This document shows, in pieces, positions 37,899 to 53,070 of a stretch of 64,000 nucleotides of DNA (positions within the stretch are counted from its first letter, which is position 1; each line of letters opens with the position of its first letter). The DNA comes from a candidate division WWE3 bacterium RIFCSPHIGHO2_01_FULL_40_23 (GTDB taxonomy: Bacteria > Patescibacteriota > WWE3 > UBA101185 > 2-01-FULL-41-18): contig MEUZ01000007.1 in NCBI GenBank assembly GCA_001772615.1, positions 108,283 to 172,282 of the forward strand, given 5' to 3'. The translations under genes and the position numbers were made by a program. The notes beneath the pieces are model-generated. The model was given only the letters and a program-made list of their open reading frames with translations, was not told where the DNA came from and ran no database searches.

Positions 37899-38075
37899 AT
37901 GCTAAGTTTTTTTAAGGAGGCGTACTACGAGCTAACCAAGGTAAATTGGCCTGATAAAAAGCAGACCGTGCGCTTGACTCAATATGTGATAGGTGTTAGT
38001 TTGGTCGTTGGCATTTACGTAGCCATACTTGATGCCGTTTTTGGCCTCGGCCTTGAAAGATTTATCATAAGATAA
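37899..38075 (+). CDS. secE: Preprotein translocase subunit SecE
   Basis: 58-aa ORF MLSFFKEAYYELTKVNWPDKKQTVRLTQYVIGVSLVVGIYVAILDAVFGLGLERFIIR with a single C-terminal TM, immediately upstream of nusG. Below the ORF-track cutoff. Confidence 0.75.
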   Translation: MLSFFKEAYYELTKVNWPDKKQTVRLTQYVIGVSLVVGIYVAILDAVFGLGLERFIIR

Positions 38076-38078
38076 AAT

Positions 38079-38666
38079 ATGGATGACGCGCTATTAAAAC
38101 AGGATGAAAAAGGAATAATTAATATATCCGATACGGTTAATCCGAACGCGATTTGGTATGCCGTCCACACATACTCCGGCCATGAAAATAAGGTCGCAAT
38201 TACGCTTAAACAGCGGGCTGAATCTTCAGGCTATCAGGATAGAATTTGTCAGATTCTTGTCCCCACACAGGAAAAAATTGTAATCAGCGAAGGGAAGAAA
38301 AGGAAAGTTGACGAGCATCTTTTACCCGGATACATCCTTGTCAATATGGTAATGAGCGATGATGCCTGGCACCTTGTAAGGTCAACCACCGGCGTTACGG
38401 GATTCGTCGGAACGGGCACCACGCCGACACCGCTTCCCGAAGCCGAGGTTAAGTCCATCCTTAAGTTTATGAAAATGGAGGCCCCCAAGTTTGAGGCTAA
38501 GTTTAAGGTCGGAGACAGCGTAAAGATAATTGACGGACCATTTACTGACTTTCTTGGAAAAGTTGACGAAGTTAACGACAGCGCCGGAAAAGTGAAGATT
38601 TTGGTTTCGGTTTTTGGGCGAGAGACTCCCATGGAGCTTGATTTTTTGCAGGTAGCTCCTTTGTAA
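38079..38666 (+). CDS. nusG: Transcription termination/antitermination factor NusG
   Basis: NGN domain (WYAVHTYSGHENKV) and C-terminal KOW (FKVGDSVKIIDGPFTDFLGKV); conserved secE-nusG-rplK synteny. Confidence 0.9.
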   Translation: MDDALLKQDEKGIINISDTVNPNAIWYAVHTYSGHENKVAITLKQRAESSGYQDRICQILVPTQEKIVISEGKKRKVDEHLLPGYILVNMVMSDDAWHLVRSTTGVTGFVGTGTTPTPLPEAEVKSILKFMKMEAPKFEAKFKVGDSVKIIDGPFTDFLGKVDEVNDSAGKVKILVSVFGRETPMELDFLQVAPL

Positions 38667-38687
38667 AAGTAGTTTCTAGACCAACAC

Positions 38688-39110
38688 ATGGCTAAAAAGA
38701 TAAAAGCTTTTGTAAAACTTAATATACCTGCGGGAAAAGCTACCCCCGCTCCCCCGGTCGGACCGTCTCTTGGACAGCACGGCGTTCCCCTCATGGAATT
38801 CTGCAAGGAATTTAATGCGAGAACGGCCAAAATGGGAGATGACATAATACCGGTCGTTTTAACTGTCTATGAGGACAGAAGCTTTACCTTTATAACTAAA
38901 ACACCCCCGGCCTCATCTCTTCTTCTTAAAGCCTCGGGAGTTGCCAAAGGTTCGGGCACACCAAACAAACAAAAAGTCGGACAGGTTACAAAAGATCAGG
39001 TTTTGGAAATAGCTAAAAGAAAGATGCCTGATTTAAACGCGAGGGATATTAACCAGGCGGTAAAGATTGTGGAAGGAACTGCAAGGTCTATGGGTATTTC
39101 AGTAGTTTGA
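38688..39110 (+). CDS. rplK: 50S ribosomal protein L11
   Basis: [33 protein letters not shown] is canonical L11. Confidence 0.95.
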
Positions 39111-39111
39111 T

Positions 39112-39810
39112 ATGAAAAAACAAATTACTTTAAAATCAAAAAAGCATCAGAAGGCCTCAAAACTCCTTGAAGAAGGTAAGATGTACTCATTAGATCAGGC
39201 TTTAGATCTTTCAAAAGAAACTTCGTACTCAAATTTTGATGCGACTCTTGAAGCCCATTTTAATCTGGATCTTGACTTAAAAAGTGGTGATCAAAATATC
39301 AGAACAACAGTCACTCTCCCCCATGGAACCGGAAAGACCGTAAAAGTGGCGGTGTTTTCAACAGAAAAAGTAAAAGGCGCCGACCTCTCATTAGGTGAAG
39401 AAGGAATTACAATGATAGAGCAAGGGAAAATAAAACCTAAAACCGATTTTGACATAGTCGCTTCGGAACCTTCGTTCATGCCTAAACTTGCAAAAGTTGC
39501 CAAAATTTTAGGACCTGCGGGAATGATGCCAAACCCTAAAACTCAAACCGTTTCAAATGACCTTGAAAAAACTGTCTCCGATTTAAAAAAAGGAAGAATT
39601 GAACTTAAACTGGAAGCCAACGCACCAATCATTCACACAAAAATAGGCAAAATGAGCTTCTCAAAGGATGCCCTTAAAGAAAATTTTCTGGAAGTGTTAA
39701 AAGCGCTTAAGGCAAACAAACCGCAGAAAGCTTCACCGAGCTGGATTAAATCTTGTTTTTTATCGGCTACCATGGGCCCCTCAATCAAAGTAGATTTTGA
39801 AAGCCTCTAG
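39112..39810 (+). CDS. rplA: 50S ribosomal protein L1
   Basis: L1 family sequence; position after rplK; TAG stop. Confidence 0.9.
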   Translation: MKKQITLKSKKHQKASKLLEEGKMYSLDQALDLSKETSYSNFDATLEAHFNLDLDLKSGDQNIRTTVTLPHGTGKTVKVAVFSTEKVKGADLSLGEEGITMIEQGKIKPKTDFDIVASEPSFMPKLAKVAKILGPAGMMPNPKTQTVSNDLEKTVSDLKKGRIELKLEANAPIIHTKIGKMSFSKDALKENFLEVLKALKANKPQKASPSWIKSCFLSATMGPSIKVDFESL

Positions 39811-39967
39811 CTTCTTATACTTGACAAGAGAAAGGGGCTCATGTAACCTTTCTTCGTTTCCGTAGAAAGTAAGGTCCCGCTGTCAGCCAACTGGCGACAC
39901 GGGTCAATTAGAGGAATCTAGCCTACCGAGGAAAAACAATTTAAGATCCCTTTGCATTAAACTTTAA
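39811..39967 (+). promoter_or_regulatory. Structured leader upstream of rplJ (L10 leader-like)
   Basis: 157-nt untranslated, GC-balanced spacer between rplA and rplJ. Hairpin candidates GAAAGGGGCTCATGTAACCTTTCTTC and CGCTGTCAGCCAACTGGCGACACGGG. The position matches known L10(L12)4 autoregulatory leaders. Confidence 0.5.
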
Positions 39968-40528
39968 TTGTTATCCTCTAAGCTTGAAAATCAAATGCCA
40001 AATCAAAAAAACAAAGAGCAGGTTTTTGCTCTAAAAGATAAAATTTCAAAGGCTAAGTCCATTGTTTTTACCGACTATAAAGGGCTTAACTCAAATCAGG
40101 CAAACGAGTTAAGAAGGAAGCTTTCAGAAGAAGGCTCTGAAATAGAAATTGCCAAAAACACTCTTCTTAAAATCGCACTTAAGGAGTCAGGATATGAAAT
40201 AAAGGAAGTTGAAAAAACTTTTGAGGGATCAACCGCGGCAATTCTTTCTTACAGCGATCCTATCTCACCTCTTAAAAAGCTCTTTGAATTTATTAAAACG
40301 GCAGGTTTGCCAAAAGTTAAACTTGGAATCTTTGATGGCGGATTTCTCCCCGAGTCGGATGTGGAAACATTAAGCAAACTGCCTTCCAAAGAAGTCTTAG
40401 TGTCCAAGCTTCTTTCAACTTTCAACTCCCCTATCTTTGGATTTGTAAATGTCTTATCGGGAACCAAAAGAAAATTCGTTTACGCGCTAAATGAGATTAC
40501 AAAGAAGAAAGGTGGGGCCGCTTCTTAA
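39968..40528 (+). CDS. rplJ: 50S ribosomal protein L10
   Basis: L10 family (SIVFTDYKGLNSNQANELRRKL); position before rplL. Confidence 0.9.
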   Translation: MLSSKLENQMPNQKNKEQVFALKDKISKAKSIVFTDYKGLNSNQANELRRKLSEEGSEIEIAKNTLLKIALKESGYEIKEVEKTFEGSTAAILSYSDPISPLKKLFEFIKTAGLPKVKLGIFDGGFLPESDVETLSKLPSKEVLVSKLLSTFNSPIFGFVNVLSGTKRKFVYALNEITKKKGGAAS

Positions 40529-40587
40529 AAAGAAGCGCTTACGGGCATCAAAAATCCCGACAGAAGTCGGGACCTTTGAAAAGCTCA

Positions 40588-40725
40588 CTTAGTGAGAGTT
40601 TATTGGAACTACCAATCCTGGTGTATTGTACAACGCAGCTTTTTGTTTTGTCAATATTTCTTTGGTGGACCCTAGGGGAATTGCACCCCTGGGCTTTGGA
40701 TTGGTAGTTCCAAACCCACACTAAG
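40588..40725. repeat. Long inverted repeat in the rplJ-rplL spacer (28-31 bp arms enclosing an internal GC hairpin)
   Basis: Arm 1 CTTAGTGAGAGTTTATTGGAACTACCAATCC. Arm 2 GGATTGGTAGTTCCAAACCCACACTAAG. Internal hairpin CCCTAGGGGAATTGCACCCCTGGG. Confidence 0.7.
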
Positions 40726-40800
40726 TAGGGCCCACCAGTAATCTATATAACACAAGTTTAACTATACTACAATATATATTGTATAAAGGGGGTGTTAAAA

Positions 40801-41202
40801 ATGGCAGAATTATCAAAACATGCGGAAAAAGTTATGGAGCTTGTTGAAAGCATGACCGTTCTTGAACTTAATGATCTAGTAAAAGCGCTTGAAGAAAAGT
40901 TTGGTGTGTCGGCATCAGCACCCATGATGAACATGGTTATGCCTCAAGGAGGCGCAGCCAATGCTTCGGCCGAGCCGGTTGAAGAAAAAACATCATTTGA
41001 TGTGGTACTAGCCGATGCTGGAGCCACCAAAATCAATGTCATTAAAGCAGTAAGAGAAATAAATCAGCAGTTAGGGCTTGTTGAGGCCAAAACTCTTGTT
41101 GAATCGGCTCCTAAAGTCATTCTTGAAGGAGTTAAAAAAGAAGCGGCTGAAGCAGCAAAGAAAAAGCTTGAAGAGGCAGGCGCTAAAGTTGAGCTCAAAT
41201 AA
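40801..41202 (+). CDS. rplL: 50S ribosomal protein L7/L12
   Basis: AAAGGGGG RBS; [36 protein letters not shown] is canonical L7/L12. Confidence 0.95.
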
Positions 41203-41276
41203 TCATAGGGAGTAGAAGTTCACAACCCTCAATTCATTGACATTACAGAGCGCAAGCTAAATAATTTAAATGTCAA

Positions 41277-43664
41277 ATGAACCTGCTTGGGAAGAACTCA
41301 CAAAACAAAAAAGTCAGCTTTTCTATTTTCAAGTTGCCAAACGCTCTTGCAATTTCACTCCCGTTTTTACTCCTATTAGCAGGTATTGTGTACGCGGCCT
41401 CCGTTTTCTCTTTTGAAGCCGAGGAGGCTTCATTTCCAAATTCCGATCCAATTGACATCGGAACCGACCCTAATGCTTCGGGAAGAAAATATATAAAATT
41501 TAAAACCCCAACCACAATGCCCGCTTCCAAAAAATTTAATTATTTTCAAGACTTTCAGATCAAGCTTTCCGGGACCATGGAGTCTATCCTTTACCCAATC
41601 CGTAATTTTCAGCAATGGAAGGGCCAATTTGCTTGGCAATCGGTAAAATCAGATGCCAACCCTTCAGTCCTTTCATCTTCCGTTTTTACTTTCACAGCAG
41701 GAGGCGATACGGACGCAAACAGTGAAGCCACTATAGTCTTAAACAATATCGCCGCGTCGCAGGGAGCGTTTCATCTTCACCTTGGCGGAATGAGTTTTAA
41801 CACAATTACACCCGAACAGAGTTGGTGCAACTACGTAAACTTTTACGATTACCCCAAAAATAGCACTCCCAGATTTCCTTTTGGCTTCCCGTATGAAATA
41901 GTTTCAGGCGAGACCGAAGATAATGGTCCGTACGGACTCATTGATAACTTTGCTTCATGTCTACCCCATTCCGGGACAGCATTTGGGCCTTTGCCCGGAG
42001 GATCTTTATACGCCAAAGAGTACTATTTTGATTATGCAGGATTAGCCAGGATTATTCTGATATCTCCTGATCTTACGTTCGGATCCGAAACTTATGATTA
42101 TTCTTCAGGCGCACACAGAACATGGCTAACAAACACCATAGACTCTGCAAGATCACAAAATATTCCATGGGTGGTTGTTGGGATGCACAAAAACTGCATT
42201 ACCATGGGGGTTAAATCATGTGAAATATCACAGTCCCTTATGAATCTTCTTATTGAAAAGAAGGTGGATCTTGTGCTTCAGGGTGGAGAGCACAGCTATC
42301 AAAGGAGCAAACAGCTTGCTATCAACCCAAATTGTACGGGAGTATCCGCGAACACATATAACTCCGATTGCGTGACTGAAGACGGCTTGGACGGAGAACT
42401 CACTAAGGATGCGGGGACCGTGTTTGTAATAGTGGGAACAACCGGCGCGGGATTTCAGGGGGTAAACACATCCGATTCCGAAGCGCCCTACTTTGCAAGG
42501 TGGATGGGAAACGCAAATAATGTCTCAATCTGCAACAACCCGACATCAGGCTGCACCGCGAGAAAGGGATTTTTAAAGGCTACGGTAACAGACACCCAGC
42601 TTGTCGCAAATTATGTAGGCGTAACAAACGGCAACTTCTCTGACGGTTTCACAATTAGTGCCCCACTCCCTACACCCACGCCCTCTCCAACTCCGACACC
42701 CCCACCTGACACTACTCCACCGGTAGTATCAAACGGATCTCCGACCATTGAGCTTCCCGAAGGCACAACCTTCACAACAATCAGCGCAACAACCGACGAG
42801 AATGCCACATGCAGATATGACAGCGCTCCTGACATCTCATATCCCCTTATGAGATGGCCTTTTGCGGCAACCGGAGGCACTTCTCATTCTTCACTTGTCA
42901 CCGGTCTTGAGGACGGCACTTCCTACACAATTTACGTTAAATGTGCCGATACTCTCGGGAACGTAAACACAACAGACTATAACTTTACCTTCAGTGTGGC
43001 GGCACCGACATGCGTAACGCTTCCGACAAATACAGGTACGGCTACATTGATTTTATCTTTTGATCAAGGAACTTATAAAGTCTGGAGCAGAATAATGTCG
43101 GCAGGTGATTCTTCAAACTCTTATTACCTGCAGGTAGATGGGGGCTGCGCCATGAACGTTTCAGACTTAAACGGAATGCCAGTCAATACCTGGACATGGG
43201 TTGATTATCAAGACGGGGTAACTTCAGATAAAACCGAGGTTACTTTAACTGCGGGAACCCACACTGTGAAGCTGATTGGAAGAGAGGCTGATACCAAAGT
43301 TGACAGAGTTATCTTTACATCTGATCTTGCCTGTGTTCCAAACGGCAAAGGCGATAACTGCGCCGCACCAACATCAAGTGATGCTACAGCGCCTACGGTA
43401 TCTATAACATCGCCGTCAAACGGGGCCATTGTGCAGAGAAACTCTTCGGTTACAATTGATGCTACCGCTTCCGATAATGTGGGTGTTACAAAAGTTGAAT
43501 TCCGCGCCAATAATTCCGCTCTGTGTTCGGATCTTTCCGCTCCCTACTCCTGTGCCTGGCAAGTTGGAAACAAACCCAATGCATCTTATACATTATCATC
43601 AAAAGCCTTTGATGCCGCGGGCAATACCTCCACAACCTCAATAACTGTCTACTCTTCCCAGTAG
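41277..43664 (+). CDS. Secreted/anchored metallophosphoesterase-like protein with degenerate catalytic motifs, PT-rich linker, extra beta-rich domain and C-terminal Ig-like domain
   Basis: N-terminal signal anchor. Metallophos scaffold aligned to the downstream paralog, but GDxxY becomes HLGGMSF, GNHE becomes SGETEDNG and GHDH becomes QGGEHSY. PTPTPSPTPTPPP linker. C-terminal DNVGVTKVEF Ig-like domain. Confidence 0.65.
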   Translation: MNLLGKNSQNKKVSFSIFKLPNALAISLPFLLLLAGIVYAASVFSFEAEEASFPNSDPIDIGTDPNASGRKYIKFKTPTTMPASKKFNYFQDFQIKLSGTMESILYPIRNFQQWKGQFAWQSVKSDANPSVLSSSVFTFTAGGDTDANSEATIVLNNIAASQGAFHLHLGGMSFNTITPEQSWCNYVNFYDYPKNSTPRFPFGFPYEIVSGETEDNGPYGLIDNFASCLPHSGTAFGPLPGGSLYAKEYYFDYAGLARIILISPDLTFGSETYDYSSGAHRTWLTNTIDSARSQNIPWVVVGMHKNCITMGVKSCEISQSLMNLLIEKKVDLVLQGGEHSYQRSKQLAINPNCTGVSANTYNSDCVTEDGLDGELTKDAGTVFVIVGTTGAGFQGVNTSDSEAPYFARWMGNANNVSICNNPTSGCTARKGFLKATVTDTQLVANYVGVTNGNFSDGFTISAPLPTPTPSPTPTPPPDTTPPVVSNGSPTIELPEGTTFTTISATTDENATCRYDSAPDISYPLMRWPFAATGGTSHSSLVTGLEDGTSYTIYVKCADTLGNVNTTDYNFTFSVAAPTCVTLPTNTGTATLILSFDQGTYKVWSRIMSAGDSSNSYYLQVDGGCAMNVSDLNGMPVNTWTWVDYQDGVTSDKTEVTLTAGTHTVKLIGREADTKVDRVIFTSDLACVPNGKGDNCAAPTSSDATAPTVSITSPSNGAIVQRNSSVTIDATASDNVGVTKVEFRANNSALCSDLSAPYSCAWQVGNKPNASYTLSSKAFDAAGNTSTTSITVYSSQ

Positions 43665-43773
43665 AATGGCAGAAAAGACAACAGGATATGCCTCTACGGG
43701 GTCACGTCCGCTAGTCTCTAATAATTAATTGTATAGCACAGAACTCGCGGCGTTCTTTCTCGCGCAATGCAAT

Positions 43774-43855
43774 GTCATTCTCGTGAGAGCGGAGATCAAC
43801 ATTGTCATTCCCGCGAAAGCGGGAATCTAGATCCTGGATCAAGTCCAGGATGACA
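43774..43855. repeat. Family-1 nested palindromic repeat
   Basis: GTCATTCTCGTGAGAGCGGAGATC, GTCATTCCCGCGAAAGCGGGAATC, AGATCCTGGATCAAGTCCAGGATGACA. Confidence 0.7.
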
Positions 43856-43906
43856 AAACATTGCGCTCCGAGTTCCCCTTAAGAGGCATATCCTGTTGTC
43901 TTTCAA
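43852..43906. repeat. ~55-nt repeat element B (GATGACAAAACATTGCGCTCCGAGTyCCCCTTAAGAGGCATATmCTGTTGTCTTTC); second copy at 56905-56961, inverted partner at 43674-43696
   Basis: Near-identical copies in two unrelated intergenic regions. The 3' arm is the reverse complement of GAAAAGACAACAGGATATGCCTCT at 43674. Confidence 0.65.
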
Positions 43907-44007
43907 ACCCGAACCACGGCGGGCCTACTGCACCGTTTGACAGCCTGGAGCATTCTGTGAGAGCATAAACTTTAAGGAAGGTTTTTTGCCCTCGCCTAGT
44001 AAAACAA

Positions 44008-45729
44008 ATGAAGCCTTTATCTAAACTCAAATTAAAAACATTCTTTTTCTTACTAACCGCCGTAGCGGTTCTATTTTTGAGTCCAAAACCGCTCCAAAAA
44101 CTCGCTAGAGCCAACGTTGAATACTCCATGCAGGTTGAAAATCAAGATATTGAGGCTGATACCGTTTATGCCTCAAAAATCTCCGAGCTGTCAAAACCTG
44201 TAATAAAGAGTGAAAGCGGGGCCTCCGTGCCGCTTTCAGAATATTTACTTGATCTAGCCAGGAAGCTTCAAAGCCTTTTAATAGGAACTCTTTTTGGGCC
44301 TGGTGAGAATAAGGCTGAAACTTCACAAACACTCTCGGCGACCGCTTTTACGTTCTCGGCCGCAGGAGATATGGGCGGAAGCTCGGACGCCAGGGCAGTC
44401 CTGGACTCAATAGCTGCCAATGGCTCAACCTTCTTCATCCACCTCGGAGACTTAAAATACGGAGCCTTCTCAACGGCTGCTTCACCGGAAACGGAGTGGT
44501 GCAACTTTGTCAAATACTCAAACTACCCCACAAATACAATAAGGAGATTCCCCGAAGGCTATCCTTATGAGCTCATTTCGGGAAACCACGAAGACAATGG
44601 AGATGACGGGCTGATAGACAATTTTAAGGTTTGTCTTCCCCATGGAAGCTCCACACTGGGGCCTTTGCCGGGAGGAAGTGACTATGCAAAAGAATACTAT
44701 TTTGATTACCAAAACCTGGTAAGGGTAATTTTAATATCCCCCGCTTTAACTTACGGATCGGAAACCTACAGCTACTCTTCGGGCGCACACAGAGACTGGC
44801 TTATTAATACCATAGACTCGGCAAGAGCGGCCCAAATCCCATGGGTAGTTGTTGCCATGCATAAAAACTGCATCACCATGGGAGTTAAATCATGCGAGAT
44901 TTCAACTAGCCTTTTAAACCTCCTCATTGACAAGAAAGTTGATCTAGTTCTTCAGGGACATGACCATGATTACCAAAGGAGCAAGCAGCTTCTCCATTCA
45001 ACAACCTGTACGGCAATCAGTTCAGGCTCATATAATGCAGGGTGCGTTTCTGATGATGGTTCCGATGGAAGTTACACAAAAGGCAACGGGCCAGTTGTAG
45101 TGATTGCGGGGACGGCAGGCGCGGGCTTATACTCCCTTAATACTGCAGATCCCGAAGCTCCTTACTTTGTCAGATGGATGGGAGACAACATTTGCAATAA
45201 CCCTTCAAGCGGATGCACCAAAAGGAAAGGGTACTTAAAAGTTGATGTTTCAAGTTCAGAATTAAACGCTTCATATGTAGGCTTGCCTTCCGGTAATTTT
45301 ACGGATTCGTTCATAATAAGCCAAACCGCTTCACCTACACCGACACCTACTCCCACTCCAACAACGACTTCCACTCCAACGCCAACACCTACCCCGACCC
45401 CTACACCAACTGCCACCCCCACTACCACTGCAACCCCCGCACCCGACTCAACTCCTCCCTCGGTAAACATCACTTACCCACTTAATACCGCGATCATACA
45501 AAGAAACGCCTATATAACCATTCAGGCAACGGCAACAGACAACGTAGGCGTTACAAAAGTTAACTTTTATGTTAATGGAGCTTTAAAATGTGCGGATACG
45601 ACCTCCCCCTACACGTGCTTATGGAAGCCGACAGGCAAACCAAACGCAAGTTATACAATTAAAGCCACGGCCTATGACGCCGCTGGAAACAACACTTCCC
45701 ATTCAATCACCGTAAGAACATTAAAATAA
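44008..45729 (+). CDS. Secreted calcineurin-like metallophosphoesterase (purple-acid-phosphatase-like) with PT-rich linker and C-terminal Ig-like domain
   Basis: Signal anchor. Intact motifs GDMG, HLGDLKYG, SGNHEDNG, MHKNC, QGHDHDYQRS. (PT)n linker and DNVGVTKVNFYVNG Ig-like C-terminus. Confidence 0.75.
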   Translation: MKPLSKLKLKTFFFLLTAVAVLFLSPKPLQKLARANVEYSMQVENQDIEADTVYASKISELSKPVIKSESGASVPLSEYLLDLARKLQSLLIGTLFGPGENKAETSQTLSATAFTFSAAGDMGGSSDARAVLDSIAANGSTFFIHLGDLKYGAFSTAASPETEWCNFVKYSNYPTNTIRRFPEGYPYELISGNHEDNGDDGLIDNFKVCLPHGSSTLGPLPGGSDYAKEYYFDYQNLVRVILISPALTYGSETYSYSSGAHRDWLINTIDSARAAQIPWVVVAMHKNCITMGVKSCEISTSLLNLLIDKKVDLVLQGHDHDYQRSKQLLHSTTCTAISSGSYNAGCVSDDGSDGSYTKGNGPVVVIAGTAGAGLYSLNTADPEAPYFVRWMGDNICNNPSSGCTKRKGYLKVDVSSSELNASYVGLPSGNFTDSFIISQTASPTPTPTPTPTTTSTPTPTPTPTPTPTATPTTTATPAPDSTPPSVNITYPLNTAIIQRNAYITIQATATDNVGVTKVNFYVNGALKCADTTSPYTCLWKPTGKPNASYTIKATAYDAAGNNTSHSITVRTLK

Positions 45730-45989
45730 AAAGGCTTGACAATTTTTCTATATTATCAAGCCTTAAACAAGTCTCTCTATGAATGTAAAGTGCCGGTGAG
45801 GAATCCTTTGAAGATGCGCTGACTGATCATCAGTTATTCTTTGGAGGAGGGATCCCTCACACGGCACCTAAAGCAGGCGGAAAGTAAAACCCCAGCGGTG
45901 AATGCTCGGTGCAGCCACCAATCGTCTTGCTCTCCGCCTGCCACTCGCAATAATATACAAAAGGAAAAGAATGTCAAATAATGGGAATG

Positions 45990-46886
45990 TCAAATATTCT
46001 CTCTTAAAAGCTTTGCGGCGTCTTCAGGGGTGGCTTTATCCGATACCCAAATCCCCGCCCCAAGCTCAATTGCGCCAAACACTTTTAAGTGAGGCAAAAA
46101 ACCCACATGCCAGTGAAAAGGGTCAAATCTTTCAGTATGAATCCAGAAATTTCTGTCGGGATAATTAAATGCGTTTCCATAAGCCTGCACAACTTTCTGC
46201 AAAACCCCGGCAAAATTATTAATCTCGGTTTCGTCAATAAAAACAAGGCTTGGGCGGTGAGTTTTCGGGGTAATTCTGATTTCATAAGACCATCTGCAGG
46301 CTTTCGGCACAAAAACCACAAAATGACTGGTTTCAAGTATGACCCGGTCTTTCCCCGCAAGGACCTCGCTGATCTCGTCGCACCAATAGCACGTGTTTTT
46401 CTCATCGTAGTAGCGGATTGACCACTCTTTCTCACTCTGCAGAATCCCAGGAAAGCCTTTTAATGCAATGATCTGTGAATGGGGGTGGACAAGCGAAGCT
46501 CCAGCCTTTTTTCCGCGGTTATTAAATATAAACACCTCTTTTTCCTGCGAGCCGTAAAAATTGGCGCGGTTTAAATAAGCCCTTATTACTCTTACCACCT
46601 GCTCGTGGTCCAAGTCCTCAAGGTCTTTATCATGATCGGGGCTGTGGATGATAACCTCATGATCCTCAACTATGGGATACTTATTCTTAATTACCCTAAC
46701 GTGCCAGTCTTCCTGGTCTTTATAAGTGGCAGGAGGAGTTAAATGCTCGTTTCCCTTACAAAAGTAGCAAACATGATCGGTAACCGACATGGTCCCCGCT
46801 TTTGCCGTCTCCTCGGGTCTTTTTGCTCTTTCAGTAGCTAAAATTGTCGGCTCCCCAGTTAAGGGATCAAAAATAAACTTGCCCAT
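45990..46886 (-). CDS. GalT-like hexose-1-phosphate nucleotidyltransferase (HIT superfamily)
   Basis: FNNRGKKAGASLVHPHSQI matches the GalT motif FxNxGxxxGASxxHPHxQ; Zn-binding Cys/His near the N-terminus. Confidence 0.65.
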   Translation of the reverse strand: MGKFIFDPLTGEPTILATERAKRPEETAKAGTMSVTDHVCYFCKGNEHLTPPATYKDQEDWHVRVIKNKYPIVEDHEVIIHSPDHDKDLEDLDHEQVVRVIRAYLNRANFYGSQEKEVFIFNNRGKKAGASLVHPHSQIIALKGFPGILQSEKEWSIRYYDEKNTCYWCDEISEVLAGKDRVILETSHFVVFVPKACRWSYEIRITPKTHRPSLVFIDETEINNFAGVLQKVVQAYGNAFNYPDRNFWIHTERFDPFHWHVGFLPHLKVFGAIELGAGIWVSDKATPEDAAKLLRENI

Positions 46887-48317
46887 TTACTTTCTTAATT
46901 CTATCACCTTCTTATAAAGCTCTTTGTATTCTTTCGCGCTTTTTGACCACGAAAAATCATTTTTTAGTGCATTTTTAACCATGGCATCCCATTTCCTGCT
47001 TCCGTAAAGTTTGTAAGCCCTTGTGACCGCTCTTAAAAAAGCGTTAGGAGAGAAAATATTGAATGAAAAGCCGTCAATACCATCCTTAACAGTGTCTTTA
47101 AGCCCGCCCACGTTATGAACTACAGGCAAAGCCCCATATCTCATTGCAATCATTTGTGAAAGGCCGCACGGCTCCGTTCTTGAGGGCATCAAAAATATAT
47201 CGGAGGAAGCGTAAATTCTTCTTGCTAAACCCTCGTCAAAGCCTAGAGAGATGGAAAGCTTTTCATGGTATTTTTTAACTTTTGAAAGGTTTGCAAGCAT
47301 CTCTTCATATTTTTTATCTCCCTTCCCAAGAAGCACAAACTGAAGATCAAGCTTTAAGATGTCCTTTAGGCTTTCCCACAGGAGGTCAAGACCCTTTTGC
47401 TTGGGATCAAGCCTAGAGATAAGAGACACGAACGGGACGTTTTTAACTGGAAGAGAAAGCTCCTTCTGCAAAAGGGCTTTATTTTCATTTTTTGCTTCTT
47501 TCCAGTCTCTTACGCCGAATCGGTATTTGATATTTCTGTCTTTTTCGGGGTCAAAATATGAATTATCAATGCCATTTAAAATTCCAAAAAACCTTCCGCT
47601 TCTCCCTCTTAAAATATCGGAGATTTGCCCGCCAATATCATCAAAAAGAAGCTCTTTAGCATATGAAGGTGATACAGTGTTAACGGCGTCTGCCGAGGCT
47701 GCACCCTCAAGCATAAAGTTAATATTATTATCTTCAAGATCCCATTGAAGAATCCTATGAAGCGGAATGCTTAAATCAACTTCTCTTACAAGCTCAAGAC
47801 TTGACTGTCCCTGATAAGAAACATTGTGGATGGTTAAGAGAGTTGCAGGCCTTTCCTCCCCGACTTCCTCCTCCAATAGATGCGTTATAAGCCCTGTGTG
47901 CCAGTCATTGCAATGAATGAGATCATAAATGTTAAATGAAGCTTTAATAAACTCAACAACCGCCTTGTTAAAAAAGGCAAATCTCGCTACCTCGTCTTTT
48001 AAAGAAGAAAAGGCATCAACTCCGCCCCCCGAGAGAAATCTTTGATTAAAAAGAAGGATAACATCAACGTTTGAGCCGGGAATTTTAGTTTTATATACCG
48101 AAACATCATGCGTTTCCCCCGAATAAGGGACTTCTATGGTCAACTGCTTGATAATCTTGTAATCTCCTCTTTTTATAATTGAATAAAAAGGAACAATAAC
48201 GTCAACATCAACCCCAAGTTTTTCCAAAGCCTTGGGAAGTGAGCCGGCCACATCACCCAAACCCCCTACCTTTATAATTGGGGCAACCTCCGAAACAGCA
48301 AACAAAACTTTCATCAC
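46887..48317 (-). CDS. glgA: Glycogen/starch synthase-like GT5 glycosyltransferase
   Basis: N-terminal KVLFAVSEVAPIIKVGGLGDV (KxGGL motif); GT-B fold; sits in the glycogen gene cluster. Confidence 0.75.
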   Translation of the reverse strand: MMKVLFAVSEVAPIIKVGGLGDVAGSLPKALEKLGVDVDVIVPFYSIIKRGDYKIIKQLTIEVPYSGETHDVSVYKTKIPGSNVDVILLFNQRFLSGGGVDAFSSLKDEVARFAFFNKAVVEFIKASFNIYDLIHCNDWHTGLITHLLEEEVGEERPATLLTIHNVSYQGQSSLELVREVDLSIPLHRILQWDLEDNNINFMLEGAASADAVNTVSPSYAKELLFDDIGGQISDILRGRSGRFFGILNGIDNSYFDPEKDRNIKYRFGVRDWKEAKNENKALLQKELSLPVKNVPFVSLISRLDPKQKGLDLLWESLKDILKLDLQFVLLGKGDKKYEEMLANLSKVKKYHEKLSISLGFDEGLARRIYASSDIFLMPSRTEPCGLSQMIAMRYGALPVVHNVGGLKDTVKDGIDGFSFNIFSPNAFLRAVTRAYKLYGSRKWDAMVKNALKNDFSWSKSAKEYKELYKKVIELRK

Positions 48318-48374
48318 GTCAAGTTTAACAGTTAAGATTTATGGTGTGAAGAACAAACGGGATGACAAACCGAC

Positions 48375-48728
48375 CTAGACGGGAAAATACCTCTCCATCC
48401 TCTCTTGTATTAGCTTAACCAGCTCTGGGTCCCCGCGAATGTAGTTATCGGGAATGTTAAAGTCTATGATCCTTTTCTTCATGGGTCTTAAATAAGGAAA
48501 CTTCTGATATAGCTTAAAGGCGTGCCTATCCTCCTTATCACTCATTACCACTACCGTATCGGCCCAGTTCACAAGTTCTTTTGTTACAGGCTGTGTCGCC
48601 CCCAGCTCTGTCCCTGCGGATTTTACCTGAAACCTCGGATCATTTTTATATAAATCCTCCGCAGTAGTGCTTCTGTCTTTATTATTGCTGCAAACAAAAA
48701 GCAGTTTAATCGGCATAATTTTTGTCAA
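48375..48728 (-). CDS. Low-molecular-weight phosphatase family protein (LMW-PTP/ArsC-like)
   Basis: LLFVCSNNKDRS P-loop (CxxNxxRS). Confidence 0.55.
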   Translation of the reverse strand: MTKIMPIKLLFVCSNNKDRSTTAEDLYKNDPRFQVKSAGTELGATQPVTKELVNWADTVVVMSDKEDRHAFKLYQKFPYLRPMKKRIIDFNIPDNYIRGDPELVKLIQERMERYFPV

Positions 48729-50154
48729 TGAAAACCAAAAGCTCCTTTATTCTGTTTCTTAGCTGGGTCGCTCTTTCAAACTCAAGATTCCCTGAAAGCT
48801 CATTCATCTCTTTTGTAAGCCTATCAACCATTTCTAAAACATCCTTCTTTGAGTATTTGGAAAGATCCTTATCAACAACCATTTTGATTTCTTCATCATA
48901 CTTTCTTGATGTCTCGTCAACTTTTCCCGTTCTCTGCCACTCAAAACCGGTCGTTATAATATCAAAGTAGAACTTTCTTGCTTTTTCTTTATCTTTTTCA
49001 GTTGAGTCAGGCGCCGTATCTACTACGTCTGATAACTCCTTAGCTCCACGCTCAATCATCTCAAGGCTCCACCACGGCTTAGCACTTGCCCACCAGAACT
49101 GATCGGAATGAAGTGATCTATCCAGGAGGTTTCTTGCTTTTTTATACTTTTCCACCTCAAATTCAGATAATTTGGACAACTCTTCATCTTTCAGACCCGA
49201 AAAAGATGATCTGTTCACACATTCTATAGCAAGGTATGTCAAGTCCCACTGCATTTTATGAATTATGTTGTCAGGATCGTCCCATCTGGCAAATGGAACA
49301 CCGGAAGTGATATCAATTTCCATTAACGCCCAAGTTGCAGGTAAGGTTTCAACCTCGCAAATCTCAAAAGGAAGTTCTAAAAGCTCTGATATTTTTTTTG
49401 GGTCAATGCTTTTGTCCCTATAGATTTCAGCAAGTGTTTTATCAAGACCCGGTCTGTGATGGCCGAAGGTCTCCCCATCCATTGCCGTCAGGAAGTATTT
49501 TCCCGAAGTTCCTTTCTCCTTGAACTCTTCAAGAAATAATTTTGAGGTGGCAAGTTGGCCTGAAAGAACTTTGAATGAGGAGTACCTGTCTCTAAAAAAT
49601 ATGATGAGGTCGGTCCCTTTTACCTTATACAATCGGGAGAAATCAATTTTTCCAAACTCATAAGCATAAGAGAGCTCTTCTGCAAGAATCCACCTGTATC
49701 CAAGCTCCCCCACAATCCTTGCCAAATGTGATGAGTAAGCCATTTCCGGTGGAAAGAACCCTTTTAAAGAAATCTGACCTCCGTCTTGATACTTTTTTGA
49801 CAGAATTGGACCCTCGATACCAAAGTATTTATAAAGGGAGAGTTCATTCAGGTATATCTGGCGCTTAATTTCACTATCTGGGAGTTTAGGAAGAAGAGGA
49901 TGATATTTCGCTGAACCCGTAAGTTCAATTTGACCTCTTTCAAGAAGAGTCCTGATCTTATTAATAACATCATGATGGCCGTATGTGTCCCAGAGTTCAC
50001 ATAAAACGGCGCTTACATTTAACGTGAGCTTTGCATTCTCATTTTGAAGCAAATGATCCACTATCTTCCTGTAAGATTCCTCCGTAATTTTATCAACCCA
50101 GTATTTTTTTTGTGTAGGAGGCTGATAAAAATGTAAAAAATTAACCCAAAGCAT
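48706..50154 (-). CDS. GH57 family glycoside hydrolase with C-terminal UVR domain
   Basis: N-terminal WVNFLHFYQPP GH57 signature. C-terminal ELSGNLEFERATQLRNRIKEL resembles the UvrB/UvrC UVR motif. Confidence 0.7.
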   Translation of the reverse strand: MLWVNFLHFYQPPTQKKYWVDKITEESYRKIVDHLLQNENAKLTLNVSAVLCELWDTYGHHDVINKIRTLLERGQIELTGSAKYHPLLPKLPDSEIKRQIYLNELSLYKYFGIEGPILSKKYQDGGQISLKGFFPPEMAYSSHLARIVGELGYRWILAEELSYAYEFGKIDFSRLYKVKGTDLIIFFRDRYSSFKVLSGQLATSKLFLEEFKEKGTSGKYFLTAMDGETFGHHRPGLDKTLAEIYRDKSIDPKKISELLELPFEICEVETLPATWALMEIDITSGVPFARWDDPDNIIHKMQWDLTYLAIECVNRSSFSGLKDEELSKLSEFEVEKYKKARNLLDRSLHSDQFWWASAKPWWSLEMIERGAKELSDVVDTAPDSTEKDKEKARKFYFDIITTGFEWQRTGKVDETSRKYDEEIKMVVDKDLSKYSKKDVLEMVDRLTKEMNELSGNLEFERATQLRNRIKELLVFIDKNYAD

Positions 50155-50163
50155 ACAAAGTTT

Positions 50164-51438
50164 CTATTTGATAGAATTTAGCACCCTTTCCTTTAATACT
50201 TTAATATCCTTTAATATATCTTGGTCCAACGGGCTTATTTTTTCAGCAGACTTTACAAAAAGCTCAAGACTTCGTTTTATAAGATTAACGTCAAAAAAAG
50301 GATTTTTTGATGACCACCAGTATTTATCAGAGTTAAGAGCTTTATCTAAAAGTATTCTTGACTTAATAAAACTTTTTTCATTCTCCGATAAATCGGAGCT
50401 GACTGAAACCTTATTAAAGTCCCAGACCGGAAGATTTCCAATATGGTCTCCGCTGGTCTTACCTCCCATTTCTTTGCTTACTTTAGATAAACTGCTTAGC
50501 ATAAGAGATTCAAAATCGCTGAAAGCACTATGAACTTCATTGCCAGATAAATACCATTTAGGATAAACATTCCCCTCTTTCATATCTTCATCCGAAGCCC
50601 CCCATGAAGCTTCCACCACAGGCGTTTCTTTCTTACTATCAAATTCGTGCATAAGATTGCTAAGTGTACTAAATGTATGTCCTTCCGCTAAAATCGAATC
50701 TAACAAGTTATCAAGAAGGTCTATGCCTCCTTTGTTATGGTGACCAAAAGTTTCTCCGTCTAAAACTATCAAGGCAAATTTTCTTCCCAAAGAGCTTAAA
50801 AACTTCAAACCTTCTATGAAATCACCAGGATCAGAATCTCTTTTATAAGCAACGCCCAAACTTAACCCCCTGTCTCTAAAACAAATCTTGAGGTTAGATC
50901 CCAAAAGCCTGTAAAAGATTCCGGAGCTTTTTACCTCCTCTCTTTTATCCCCCGGAATACTAACTTCGTCCAGAATTACCCATTCATAACCCAAACTCTC
51001 TACAAGCTTCCCTAAGTCCGAGTTAAAAGCCATTTCAGGGGGGAAAAAACCTCCTAAGTTTTTTATCATAAAGGCATTCTCACCCTCAAAACCCTGCCTT
51101 CTGCCTAAATAATACCCAAGACCTGCCTCATTTAAAATGATCTGCCTTTCAACTTCGGCCTCACTTAATTTAGTAAGAATCGGGTGATAGGCTGCGCTTC
51201 CGGTAAGCTCAATCACTTCTTTATCCCTCAAAAGCGCAATTTCTTCCGTAAAGCCTTCCACTTTCTCTTTATCAAACCATTCAAGAAGACTTAAGGGAAT
51301 GTTAAGAGTTGCTCTAAACTCCTTTTTTCTTTTTAAAAGTCTTACAAGAGGAACGTAGCACTCACTCGCTAGCTCGTGAAAAATGCGAGCATACTGAAAA
51401 GGGGGTTGATAAAGGTGCAAAAGAAATGAAACAATCAT
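50164..51438 (-). CDS. GH57 family glycoside hydrolase
   Basis: N-terminal FLLHLYQPP motif; paralogous to the upstream GH57 gene. Confidence 0.7.
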   Translation of the reverse strand: MIVSFLLHLYQPPFQYARIFHELASECYVPLVRLLKRKKEFRATLNIPLSLLEWFDKEKVEGFTEEIALLRDKEVIELTGSAAYHPILTKLSEAEVERQIILNEAGLGYYLGRRQGFEGENAFMIKNLGGFFPPEMAFNSDLGKLVESLGYEWVILDEVSIPGDKREEVKSSGIFYRLLGSNLKICFRDRGLSLGVAYKRDSDPGDFIEGLKFLSSLGRKFALIVLDGETFGHHNKGGIDLLDNLLDSILAEGHTFSTLSNLMHEFDSKKETPVVEASWGASDEDMKEGNVYPKWYLSGNEVHSAFSDFESLMLSSLSKVSKEMGGKTSGDHIGNLPVWDFNKVSVSSDLSENEKSFIKSRILLDKALNSDKYWWSSKNPFFDVNLIKRSLELFVKSAEKISPLDQDILKDIKVLKERVLNSIK

Positions 51439-51447
51439 TAACTTTAT

Positions 51448-53070
51448 TTACATTCCAAAACTAGAGACGTGGGAAACCGAACTTTTCTTGTGAAATTCCA
51501 TTGCTCTTCTGTAAATCTTTGCATACTCTTTTGCGCTTTTATTCCAGCTGAAGTCTTTCCTCATAGCGTTTTTCTGAATTACTCTCCATACCTCTTTATG
51601 CTTAAAGCTTTCAACAGCACGCACAAGCTGGCCATAGAAGGCTATTACATCATAATCTTCAAAAACAAAACCTGTACCTTTGTGAGTTTTGGGGTCAAAA
51701 TTCTCAACTGAATCAGCCAAACCTCCGACTTTCCTCACAATAGGTATCGCTCCGTACCTCATTGCCTCAAGCTGTACAATGCCGCAAGGTTCAAACTTTG
51801 AAGGGTACAGGATCATGTCACATCCCGCGAAAATAAGCCTTGGAAGGGTGAAATTAGGAAGCAGGTGAAGTCCCACATTTTTAGGAAAAGCCGATTTAAG
51901 TTCTCTAAACTGCTCCGTATAAGTAAGGTCCCCTCCCCCAACCTGCACAAACTGAACGCCGAAGTCTTTAATCAGATACTTCATCGCAGGAACTATAAGG
52001 TCAATACCTTTCTGCTGATCAAGCCTTCCCACAAAGCCGATCAGAGGTATTTCATCCGAAACGGCTATGTTGTACTCTTTCTGGACTGCCACTTTGTTTG
52101 CCGTCCTCTGCTCCAAAGAAAAGGCGTCATAATTTTTCTCTATGACTTTGTCGGTCGCGGGGTCAAACGATTCAGTATCCAAGCCGTTTAAAACTCCATA
52201 GACTTTGCTTCTGACCTCAAGCAAAAGCCTGTCTAGACCTGCACCAAATTCCTGGGTTAGTATCTCTTTAGAGTAAGTTGGCGAAACCGTGTTCACCGCG
52301 TCGGAGTAAATAATTCCTCTTTTCATAAAATTCTGCTTGTTAAGCGCTTCGGAGAAAAAAGGTGCAACATCGGATTTTCCATCGTCAAAGTCAAGCTCGC
52401 TTATATTTTGTGGGTCAAAAAGCCCCTGATAATAAAGATTATGAATTGTTAACAGTGAGGCAACCTTGGAAAGCTTCGGGTCGTTATTGTAATAAGAGCT
52501 TAAATAGTTAGGGAGAACACCAGTATGCCAATCATTACAATGAATTACATCAGGGTAAAAATCATCGTCAAGAAACTCCTCTGTTTCGGGAAGCCTTTTT
52601 AGAAATTCTAAAGCGCCTCTTGATAAAAGAGCCCAGCGAGTGGGGTCGTCAGAGTAGCCGTAAACATTGGCTCTTTTTTCGTAATACTCCATGTTTTCAA
52701 GAAAATAAACCGTTACACCGGAAGGAAGTACACATTTTTTAACATTGCAGATAAGATTTGGGGTGGCTTCGTCTCCCGTCGGAACCGCTAAATCCGCAAA
52801 AACCATCTCAAGCTCATATTTCTCTTCGTCAATAAAACCAAATTTTGGCAAAAACACTCTTGCCTCATGTCCGGTTTTTCTTAAAGCTGTGGAAAGGGCT
52901 TCTATCACCCTTGAGAAGCCGCCGACGGCGGCAAAAGGCGAGGATTCAGCCGCCACTATTAAAACCTTAAGAGGCGGTTCTTTCCCTACAATCCCTTCAA
53001 GTTTTGAAAAAAGACCGTTATTTTTCCCGCTCATATTTCTCCCACTAAATTGTACGCAAAATTTAGACAC
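51448..53070 (-). CDS. Glycogen/starch synthase-like GT5 glycosyltransferase, second copy
   Basis: KVLIVAAESSPFAAVGGFSRV (KxGG motif), GT-B C-terminal half. The true start may be an internal Met. Confidence 0.7.
   Translation of the reverse strand: MSKFCVQFSGRNMSGKNNGLFSKLEGIVGKEPPLKVLIVAAESSPFAAVGGFSRVIEALSTALRKTGHEARVFLPKFGFIDEEKYELEMVFADLAVPTGDEATPNLICNVKKCVLPSGVTVYFLENMEYYEKRANVYGYSDDPTRWALLSRGALEFLKRLPETEEFLDDDFYPDVIHCNDWHTGVLPNYLSSYYNNDPKLSKVASLLTIHNLYYQGLFDPQNISELDFDDGKSDVAPFFSEALNKQNFMKRGIIYSDAVNTVSPTYSKEILTQEFGAGLDRLLLEVRSKVYGVLNGLDTESFDPATDKVIEKNYDAFSLEQRTANKVAVQKEYNIAVSDEIPLIGFVGRLDQQKGIDLIVPAMKYLIKDFGVQFVQVGGGDLTYTEQFRELKSAFPKNVGLHLLPNFTLPRLIFAGCDMILYPSKFEPCGIVQLEAMRYGAIPIVRKVGGLADSVENFDPKTHKGTGFVFEDYDVIAFYGQLVRAVESFKHKEVWRVIQKNAMRKDFSWNKSAKEYAKIYRRAMEFHKKSSVSHVSSFGM

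What the first reader, a model, noticed from the sequence alone, without database searches (positions are those of the whole stretch)
41277..45729. Two secreted metallophosphoesterase paralogs occupy the position after rplL where rpoB is normally found; the first is catalytically degenerate
The secE-nusG-rplKAJL block is normally followed by rpoBC. Here rplL is followed instead by two paralogous secreted proteins sharing a calcineurin-like phosphoesterase scaffold, a PT-rich linker and a C-terminal Ig-like domain. The second keeps all metal-binding motifs (GDxxY, GNHE, GHDH). The first has lost three of them (HLGGMSF, SGETEDNG, QGGEHSY) and gained an extra ~250-aa beta-rich domain. This points to a pseudo-enzyme or binding-protein role. 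A family-1 repeat and repeat element B lie between the two genes.
Basis: partly seen in the sequence, partly recalled or inferred. Interest (0 to 1): 0.55.

Follow-up and report, generated by a model that had tools for sequence, protein, structure and literature searches.

The report
Dead and live secreted phosphoesterase paralogs
A groundwater CPR bacterium (candidate division WWE3) carries two adjacent secreted purple-acid-phosphatase-like genes, one intact and one with a destroyed metal site but an otherwise conserved fold; their place after rplL is not unusual, because rpoB does not follow rplL in this lineage.

Summary
W1 (41277-43664, 795 aa) and W2 (44008-45729, 573 aa) are paralogs: 61% identical over a 334-aa phosphoesterase core and 57% over a C-terminal Big_7 Ig domain. 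W2 has the full purple-acid-phosphatase signature. W1 has lost 5 of 8 signature residues, and it is the only single-domain protein among 248 family proteins with 3 or more losses.

W1 is not decaying. It is W2's sister (200/200 bootstrap) and evolves at the same rate (37 vs 35 unique changes). Five of its six private changes at conserved columns are catalytic residues. It is most likely a maintained non-catalytic binding or adaptor paralog.

Its extra ~240 aa are two modules, one FN3-like and one CBM35/6-like. Both occur in other family members, so they are not clearly a gain.

The rpoB framing fails. None of 12 named Patescibacteria loci with at least 3.6 kb of downstream sequence has rpoB within the up to 10 kb after rplL. 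The genes are nevertheless a lineage-specific 4.8-kb insertion, since three close relatives have rplL directly facing the glycogen operon.

The organism is candidate division WWE3 RIFCSPHIGHO2_01_FULL_40_23. Low to moderate interest: a new member of a known kind.

The parts
37899..41202 (+). secE-nusG-rplK-rplA-rplJ-rplL block that precedes the pair. rplL is 40792-41202.
   Evidence: Pfam hits for NusG/KOW, L11, L1, L10 and L7/L12. SecE was called on the identical ENA contig.
41237..41265 (+). Sigma-70-like promoter match (TTGACA-17-AATAAT, 11/12) in the 74-bp rplL-W1 spacer. No terminator-like hairpin lies between rplL and W1.
   Evidence: Relatives L007, L013 and L019 have G+C-rich hairpin plus T-run terminators right after rplL.
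41277..43664 (+). W1, 795 aa: a secreted, catalytically degenerate PAP-like metallophosphoesterase paralog (NCBI hypothetical protein A2716_01000).
41667..42659 (+). W1 metallophosphoesterase-fold core (aa 131-461). Degenerate motif II is GGMSF (41784-41798), motif III is GETE (41907-41918) and motif V is GGEH (42282-42293).
   Evidence: AF2 block-mean pLDDT is mostly above 90. Foldseek matches plant PAPs at E 5e-11. The signature is DGFETHGH. All invariant cysteines are kept.
42717..43007 (+). W1 FN3/Ig-like module (aa 481-577), absent from W2.
   Evidence: Sub-threshold Pfam hits to Pur_ac_phosph_N (E 6e-4), Big_13 and Big_3_3. It is 51-56% identical to two repeats in P0003. UniRef names the protein 'Fibronectin type-III domain-containing'. 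AF2 confidence here is low.
43008..43376 (+). W1 CBM35/CBM6-like beta-sandwich module (aa 578-700), absent from W2.
   Evidence: AF2 pLDDT 91. Foldseek best matches are CBM35, CBM6 and CBM36 modules, probability 1.0, TM 0.5-0.6. Weak Pfam hits to GH115_C and CBM_6. The module is present in 16 of 119 homologs at 33-62% identity.
43392..43646 (+). W1 C-terminal Big_7 Ig-like domain.
   Evidence: Pfam Big_7, 73.6 bits. Foldseek matches 9kvu and CbhA X1 modules with TM 0.82-0.85.
43674..43903 (.). 230-bp nested palindromic repeat element between W1 and W2. It has perfect 22-nt terminal inverted repeats and internal hairpins that belong to window-wide repeat families.
   Evidence: Its RNA fold is -105.6 kcal/mol, z = -8.7. 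A partial copy lies at 56897-56961. Rfam has no match.
44008..45729 (+). W2, 573 aa: a secreted PAP-like metallophosphoesterase with an intact binuclear-site signature. Core is 44329-45321, PT linker 45328-45450, Big_7 45457-45717.
45731..45764 (-). Hairpin with a T-run on the minus strand, a likely terminator of the convergent glycogen operon.
45990..53070 (-). Convergent glycogen operon (galT-like, glgA, a LMW-phosphatase-like ORF, two GH57, glgA). In relatives it abuts rplL directly.
   Evidence: Pfam. Synteny in L007, L013 and L019. The operon is described for WWE3 by Kantor et al. 2013 (PMC3812714).

Best explanation
W2 is an exported binuclear metallophosphoesterase of the purple-acid-phosphatase type. 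It belongs to an uncharacterised family that is usually fused to carbohydrate-binding or cell-surface modules. It most likely hydrolyses phosphomono- or phosphodiester bonds on extracellular, probably glycan-associated, substrates for a nutrient-scavenging CPR cell.

W1 arose from the same ancestral gene by a duplication within this lineage. It then lost the bridging Asp, the Tyr and Asn ligands, the catalytic His and one His ligand, so it cannot build the canonical two-metal site. Its fold, its disulfide cysteines and its accessory modules (FN3-like, CBM35-like, Big_7) stay under constraint. It therefore acts as a non-catalytic binding, targeting or scaffold protein, that is, a pseudoenzyme.

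The pair sits in a variable slot between rplL and the convergent glycogen operon. It does not replace rpoBC, which is not linked to rplL in Patescibacteria.

Shown: paralogy, motif states, fold, sister relation, equal rates, insertion relative to sister genomes, and lack of rplL-rpoB linkage in the lineage. Inferred: export, substrate class, and the binding or adaptor role.
For: - Paralogy: 61% and 57% identity.
- W2 reaches Pfam Metallophos and aligns motif-for-motif with kidney-bean PAP.
- Of 257 family domains, 223 carry DDYNHHHH. W1 carries DGFETHGH and is the only single-domain protein with 3 or more changes.
- Of 77 columns that are at least 90% conserved in 80 homologs, W1 has six private changes (D171G, Y174F, N212E, H213T, H337G, Y375L). 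Five of them are signature residues. Five further differences are shared with W2.
- W1 and W2 are sisters in 200/200 NJ bootstraps. Unique changes against the family consensus are 37 and 35, chi2 0.06.
- The best hit of the W2 core among 1.84 billion representatives is W1 at 59%; the next hits are 57% or lower.
- The AF2 core has block-mean pLDDT mostly above 90, and Foldseek matches PAPs at E 5e-11.
- The CBM35/6-like fold of aa 578-700 is supported.
- Family partners are CBM96, GH99, fn3, dockerin, PKD, malectin and PA14.
- The identical W1 protein is found in independent assemblies.
- Gene order is documented.
Against: - No biochemical data exist for any member of this family, so the substrate is a guess.
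- W1 keeps three ligand positions (D144, H304, H339) and has new acidic residues at or next to former ligand positions (E212, E338). A remodelled metal site is therefore not excluded.
- Model coordinates could not be inspected.
- Signal peptides were judged by eye only.
- Purifying selection on W1 is inferred from a relative-rate comparison and conserved columns, not from dN/dS.
- No expression data are available.
Confidence: 0.6

Rival explanations
1. W1 still catalyses a reaction through a remodelled site. The site could be mononuclear or use E212 and E338 as replacement ligands, possibly with a different substrate or chemistry.
For: - Three ligand positions survive: D144, H304 and H339.
- Asn212 is replaced by Glu, and a Glu sits inside the former GHxH motif.
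- The rest of the pocket is conserved.
- Family members with one or two substitutions are fairly common, for example DDYDHHHH and DDYNHHNH.
Against: - The bridging Asp is replaced by Gly and the general-acid His by Thr.
- Five of eight signature positions changed together.
- No other stand-alone family member is this degenerate.
- W1 falls below the Pfam Metallophos threshold.
Confidence: 0.12
2. W1 is a functionless duplicate on its way to becoming a pseudogene.
For: - The catalytic motifs are lost.
- No ortholog closer than W2 was found in two protein collections or in the scanned metagenome contig collection, so conservation across species cannot be shown.
Against: - The ORF is an intact 795 codons and is identical on 13 contigs from several assemblies.
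- W1 shows no rate acceleration relative to W2.
- 66 of 77 conserved columns are kept, including all invariant cysteines.
- The accessory CBM-like module is up to 62% identical to homologs, which is higher than the core.
Confidence: 0.1
3. The position after rplL is functionally meaningful: the genes displaced rpoBC or are regulated as part of the ribosomal-protein operon.
For: - No terminator-like hairpin lies between rplL and W1, whereas relatives have one. Read-through from rplJL is therefore possible.
- rplL-rpoB linkage is widespread in other phyla (PMC8046335).
Against: - rpoB is absent after rplL in 12 of 12 named Patescibacteria loci with adequate downstream sequence.
- The ancestral neighbour is the glycogen operon.
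- A promoter-like site precedes W1.
- The slot after rplL holds unrelated genes in other CPR genomes.
- Homologs sit in unrelated contexts.
Confidence: 0.05

Closest known systems
Purple acid phosphatases (plant PAPs such as kidney bean 1kbp/4dhl, sweet potato 1xzw, lupin PPD1 3zk4) and bacterial PAP-like enzymes such as M. tuberculosis Rv2577/MmpE (PMC7642983, PMC12999176)
   Same: - The fold is the same: Foldseek E 5e-11 for W1, and phmmer E 4e-5 for W2.
- W2 has the five motifs GD / GDxxY / GNHE / H / GHxH with the PAP-specific Tyr.
- Both W2 and these enzymes are exported.
   Different: - Sequence identity is only about 16-20%.
- There is no N-terminal FN3-like Pur_ac_phosph_N domain before the core.
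- The cysteine pattern is different.
- C-terminal PT linkers with Big_7 and CBM-like modules are present here.
- No activity data exist.
- W1 lacks 4 of 7 metal ligands and the catalytic His.
Non-catalytic proteins with a metallophosphoesterase fold. VPS29 of retromer is a scaffold (PMC5748213). The B-subunits of archaeal and eukaryotic DNA polymerases are a second example, cited from my own knowledge and not tested here.
   Same: A calcineurin-like fold is kept while metal ligands are lost, and the protein is used for binding or scaffolding.
   Different: - Those proteins are cytosolic, ancient and widely conserved.
- W1 is extracellular, species-specific and recent, and sits next to its active parent.
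- There is no sequence relationship beyond the superfamily.
Tandem-domain members of the same family (P0006, P0007, P0009, P0012, P0014, P0125)
   Same: They pair one intact or nearly intact PAP-like domain with one domain that has 3-5 signature substitutions. This is the same intact-plus-degenerate pairing as W2 with W1.
   Different: - The pairing is within one polypeptide, not across two genes.
- The substitution patterns differ (for example RDYDHHQG), so the degenerations are independent.
- PKD domains replace Big_7 and CBM-like modules.
secE-nusG-rplKAJL-rpoBC conserved cluster (PMC8046335)
   Same: secE-nusG-rplKAJL is intact and collinear.
   Different: rpoBC does not follow rplL, either here or in the other Patescibacteria examined.
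REP / MITE-like intergenic palindromic repeats
   Same: These are short GC-rich hairpin units dispersed in intergenic regions. A 230-bp composite with perfect 22-nt terminal inverted repeats lies between W1 and W2.
   Different: There is no sequence relationship to the REP families of E. coli and no Rfam match. Mobility was not shown.

Membership tests
Calcineurin-like metallophosphoesterase superfamily (Pfam PF00149) | Profile match above the curated threshold | tested here: met
   W2 scores 44.3 bits against a cutoff of 21.5. This row is met for W2 only: W1 gives no Metallophos hit even at E 0.1.
Calcineurin-like metallophosphoesterase superfamily (Pfam PF00149) | Beta-alpha-beta-alpha-beta sandwich fold | tested here: met
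   The W1 AF2 core has block-mean pLDDT mostly above 90. Foldseek matches PAPs at E 5e-11 and PhoD at 7.6e-9, probability 1.0. For W2 the fold is inferred from 61% identity to W1.
Purple acid phosphatase-type binuclear site | Seven metal ligands (D; D, Y; N; H; H, H) plus the catalytic His of GNHE: test on W2 | tested here: met
   The W2 signature is DDYNHHHH, in register with kidney-bean PAP.
Purple acid phosphatase-type binuclear site | Seven metal ligands plus the catalytic His: test on W1 | tested here: not met
   The W1 signature is DGFETHGH. The bridging D, Y, N, catalytic H and first H of GHxH are replaced. The alignment to W2 has no gaps at the motifs.
Purple acid phosphatase family (plant/animal type) | N-terminal FN3-like domain (Pur_ac_phosph_N) preceding the catalytic domain | tested here: not met
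   No such domain lies before the core in W1 or W2. In W1 the only match is sub-threshold (E 6e-4, 20.7 bits against 30) and lies C-terminal to the core.
Purple acid phosphatase family | Acid phosphatase activity with an Fe(III)-M(II) centre | not testable with these tools
   This needs purified protein.
CBM6/CBM35 clan (W1 aa 578-700) | Beta-sandwich (jelly-roll) fold similar to CBM35/CBM6 | tested here: met
   AF2 pLDDT is 91. Foldseek top matches are CBM35, CBM6 and CBM36 modules, probability 1.0, E 7e-4 to 1e-2, TM 0.5-0.6.
CBM6/CBM35 clan (W1 aa 578-700) | Sequence-profile membership and sugar or Ca2+ binding residues | tested here: inconclusive
   Pfam CBM_6 gives E 0.067 and GH115_C gives E 0.008, both below their cutoffs. 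Binding residues were not examined.
Big_7 bacterial Ig domain | Profile match above threshold | tested here: met
   73.6 bits for W1 and 67.6 bits for W2, cutoff 24.1.
Conserved secE-nusG-rplKAJL-rpoBC cluster | rpoB immediately downstream of rplL | tested here: not met
   No rpoB is found in the window. None of 12 named Patescibacteria loci with at least 3.6 kb downstream has it. rpoB lies 19-382 bp after rplL in most non-CPR loci that have it, with one exception at 2.4 kb.

The most novel reading that the evidence does not exclude
W1 and W2 form an extracellular heterodimer. This would be the two-gene equivalent of the family's tandem proteins that join one intact and one degenerate PAP-like domain. 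In this reading the dead subunit supplies the CBM35-like and FN3-like modules that dock the live subunit onto a phosphorylated glycan, for example on a host cell wall. Obligate pairing of active and inactive domains would then be a recurrent design in this uncharacterised enzyme family.
Probability: 0.2. Interest if true: 0.45.

Novelty: new member of a known kind. Interest (0 to 1): 0.25.

Why it matters
CPR bacteria depend on other cells and on scavenging, so their secreted and surface proteins are where most of their unknown biology lies.

This locus gives a clean natural example of an enzyme and pseudoenzyme pair. The duplication is recent, the losses are concentrated on the active site, and the rate of change is unchanged. 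The family it belongs to has about 600 representative clusters at E 1e-30 or better and no characterised member. The pair could guide experiments on what this family binds and cleaves.

The analysis also corrects a tempting misreading. The rplL-rpoB linkage taken for granted from model bacteria does not hold in Patescibacteria, so genes after rplL in these genomes should not be read as 'replacing' rpoB.

Tried and rejected
- **Structured RNA.** I searched Rfam at permissive E-values over 41150-46050 for a structured RNA in the intergenic elements. Nothing was found.
- **Split CBM35 domain.** I tested whether the N-terminal strand motif 'EAE...ASGG' complements the C-terminal CBM-like module. 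The motif occurs only in proteins that have that module (4 distinct cases against 0 true cases in about 226 others). However, most proteins with the module lack the motif, and AF2 gives pLDDT below 50 for W1 44-82. I left this as a hint.
- **Horizontal transfer.** GC3 of W1 and W2 (0.44) lies within the range of their neighbours (0.32-0.49), so there is no compositional signal.
- **Closer orthologs.** I looked for orthologs that would date the inactivation. None was above about 57% identity in the word-indexed protein search, the exhaustive representative search or the metagenome contig scan. W2 itself is missing from the protein collection, so absences there are not absolute.
- **dN/dS between W1 and W2.** Not attempted, because at 61% amino-acid identity synonymous sites are saturated. 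The one full-length variant (P0124) has 6 substitutions, all outside the core, and came without DNA.
- **Locating rpoB.** It is not in the window, and the tools could not reach the rest of the assembly.
- **Conserved neighbours of homologs.** None was found.
- **Literature.** A search for 'metallophosphoesterase' together with 'pseudoenzyme' returned no papers.

Full report
**Source and coordinates.** W1 is 100% identical to hypothetical protein A2716_01000 of candidate division WWE3 bacterium RIFCSPHIGHO2_01_FULL_40_23, a Patescibacteria/CPR genome from groundwater. The same protein lies on 13 contigs; the places shown come from ENA, JGI and Logan assemblies, and the database also lists NCBI as a source. 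Upstream lie secE (37899-38075), nusG, rplK, rplA, rplJ and rplL. Downstream on the opposite strand lies a glycogen operon: galT-like, glgA, two GH57 genes and a second glgA. Kantor et al. 2013 described this operon for WWE3 (PMC3812714).

**Paralogy and motifs.**
- W1 and W2 share 61% identity over 334 aa (E 6e-148) and 57% over the C-terminal 90 aa.
- Pfam finds Big_7 in both but Metallophos only in W2.
- W2 aligns with kidney-bean purple acid phosphatase so that GD, GDLKY, GNHE, MH and GHDH fall on GDLG, GDLSY, GNHE, MH and GHVH.
- I tabulated eight signature positions: seven metal ligands and the catalytic His. Among the 127 domains retrieved with W1, 115 read DDYNHHHH and W1 reads DGFETHGH.
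- After adding the 150 best representatives from an exhaustive search of 1.84 billion cluster representatives, 223 of 257 domains are canonical. W1 is the only single-domain protein with three or more substitutions.
- The alignment of W1 to W2 has no gaps at any motif, so shifted ligands are very unlikely.

**W1 is a maintained protein, not a decaying one.**
- Of 77 alignment columns that are at least 90% conserved in 80 other homologs, W1 departs at 11 and W2 at 6. Five departures are shared.
- The six private to W1 are D171G, Y174F, N212E, H213T, H337G and Y375L. Five of these six are signature residues.
- All invariant cysteines are kept.
- In a neighbour-joining analysis of the core, W1 and W2 are sisters in 200 of 200 bootstraps.
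- Against the family consensus, W1 has 37 unique changes and W2 has 35 (chi2 0.06), so W1 shows no acceleration.
- The best hit of the W2 core in the whole representative library is W1 at 59%; all others are 57% or lower. No closer relative was found in the metagenome contigs that were scanned.
- The duplication is therefore specific to this lineage, and the inactivation removed the catalytic residues while leaving the scaffold constrained.

**Structure.** The AF2 model of W1 is confident for the core (aa 131-461, block-mean pLDDT mostly above 90), for aa 585-695 (about 90) and for Big_7 (about 95). It is poor for the N-terminal 130 residues and for aa 478-575. Foldseek places the core with plant purple acid phosphatases (E 5e-11) and PhoD, and places the last domain with CbhA X1-type Ig modules.

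**The extra region of W1 is two modules.**
- aa 481-577 is FN3/Ig-like. It has sub-threshold Pfam hits, is 51-56% identical to two repeats in P0003, and carries a UniRef FN3 name.
- aa 578-700 was modelled alone at pLDDT 91. Its best structural matches are CBM35, CBM6 and CBM36 modules.
- The CBM-like module follows the catalytic domain in 16 of 119 homologs at up to 62% identity. P0005 has the order MPE-fn3-CBM-like-dockerin. P0002 matches W1 585-791 at 56%.
- The W1 architecture therefore exists elsewhere in the family, and 'gain in W1' cannot be separated from 'loss in W2'.

**Family.** About 600 representative clusters match at E 1e-30 or better. Members carry CBM96, GH99, fn3, PKD, dockerin, CARDB, malectin or PA14 modules. 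None has a characterised function, and neighbours are not conserved. Nine proteins carry two phosphoesterase domains. In six of them one domain is intact or nearly so and the other has 3-5 signature substitutions. The pair W2+W1 is the same combination encoded as two genes. This motivates the heterodimer idea but does not demonstrate it.

**Gene order.**
- I fetched 80 loci around relatives of this rplL from species-representative genomes.
- As the rpoB probe I used the 1271-aa ORF that follows rplL in Sporomusa ovata, confirmed as rpoB by Pfam.
- Twelve loci are named as WWE3, Collier-, Gottesman-, Yanofsky-, Shapiro- or Gracilibacteria or 'Patescibacteria group' and have at least 3.6 kb of downstream sequence. 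None of them has an rpoB match anywhere in the locus.
- In contrast, 20 of 28 non-CPR loci with adequate downstream sequence have rpoB, 19-382 bp after rplL in all but one, where the gap is 2.4 kb.
- The window itself has no rpoB.
- In the closest relatives (WWE3 L007 and L013, Patescibacteria L019) rplL faces the galT-glgA-GH57-GH57-glgA operon directly, across 115-310 bp.
- In more distant Microgenomates-like loci the same junction holds 1.5-6.5 kb of unrelated genes, often PT-rich membrane proteins.
- So the pair is a 4.8-kb lineage-specific insertion into a variable slot. It is not a replacement of rpoBC.
- Relatives have clear terminators after rplL. This window has none in the 74-bp spacer, but it does have a TTGACA-17-AATAAT match. 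Read-through from rplJL is possible but untested.
- The base composition of the pair is unremarkable.

**Intergenic repeats.** Between W1 and W2 lies a 230-bp element (43674-43903) with perfect 22-nt terminal inverted repeats and nested hairpins. It folds far better than shuffled controls (z = -8.7). Its internal hairpins belong to families with 4-8 copies in the window, and its right end recurs at 56897-56961. Two short Logan (short-read) contigs end inside its left terminal repeat. Rfam has no match. Their role is unknown; by analogy with REP elements (my own knowledge) they may affect mRNA stability or the relative expression of the two genes.

**Verdict.**
- The descriptive part of the finding is right, and the pseudoenzyme reading is well supported by sequence and predicted structure.
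- The genomic-position argument that gave the finding its title does not hold for this lineage.
- What remains is an active/inactive paralog pair from an uncharacterised family of secreted PAP-like enzymes. It is a new member of a known kind of phenomenon. The nearest parallels are VPS29 (PMC5748213) and other inactive metallophosphoesterase-fold proteins.
- Interest is low to moderate.

Noticed in passing
window 14000-25100: A block with 50-63% GC (GC3 0.55-0.81) sits in a genome of about 40% GC. Its minus-strand ORFs include a VWA protein (17510-19273), a MoxR of the MoxR-vWA-beta-propeller ternary-system type (19360-20568), a protein with a Cas_csx3 domain (22586-23902), and 895-aa and 294-aa ORFs without Pfam hits. 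It looks like a horizontally acquired, conflict-system-like island.
   Followed up: partly
window 1348-1378, 5410-5440, 13119-13149, 17190-17220, 27962-27992, 43826-43856, 58971-59001; also 16965-17033, 19286-19354, 22306-22357, 26454-26505: Several families of short GC-rich hairpin repeats are scattered in intergenic regions. Examples are ...GATCCCGGATCAAGTCCGGGATGACA..., GTCATTCCCGCGAAAGCGGGAATC, and GCTCGCAATGAC...GTCATTGCGAG. They resemble REP/MITE systems.
   Followed up: partly
window 41412-41501 (W1 aa 46-75) and 43008-43376 (aa 578-700); P0002, P0019, P0225: An N-terminal 'EAE...ASGG(K/E)(Y/F)' segment, typical of the first strands of CBM6/35 modules, occurs only in family proteins that also carry the C-terminal CBM-like module (4 distinct proteins against none of about 226 others). 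This hints at a discontinuous CBM with the catalytic domain inserted into it. AF2 confidence is low there.
   Followed up: partly
proteins P0006, P0007, P0009, P0012, P0014, P0125 (homologs): Six of the nine family proteins with two phosphoesterase domains combine one intact or nearly intact domain with one degenerate domain. The substitution patterns are independent of each other.
   Followed up: partly
loci L011, L043, L030, L028, L051 (downstream of rplL): In Microgenomates-like genomes the rplL to galT junction holds 1.5-6.5 kb of variable genes. These include a recurrent membrane-anchored PT-rich protein (MDKFFSVFGK...). Several of these MAGs are labelled 'uncultured Gammaproteobacteria' but have CPR-like ribosomal operons with large insertions between nusG, rplK, rplA and rplJ.
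   Followed up: no
window 40529-40791: The rplJ-rplL spacer is unusually long at 263 bp. It contains a G+C-rich terminator-like hairpin at 40671-40693 on the + strand. No Rfam family matched it in the whole-window gathering-threshold scan.
   Followed up: no
window 8172-8245 versus 37899: tRNA-Trp, which often directly precedes secE-nusG in bacteria (my own knowledge), lies about 30 kb upstream of secE here. The high-GC island and many ORFs without Pfam hits lie in between.
   Followed up: no
window 44008-45729: The exact W2 protein is absent from the 15-billion-protein collection, although the gene is called on the same contigs as W1. This explains why it did not appear among the hits to W1, and it shows that absences in that collection are not absolute.
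   Followed up: yes
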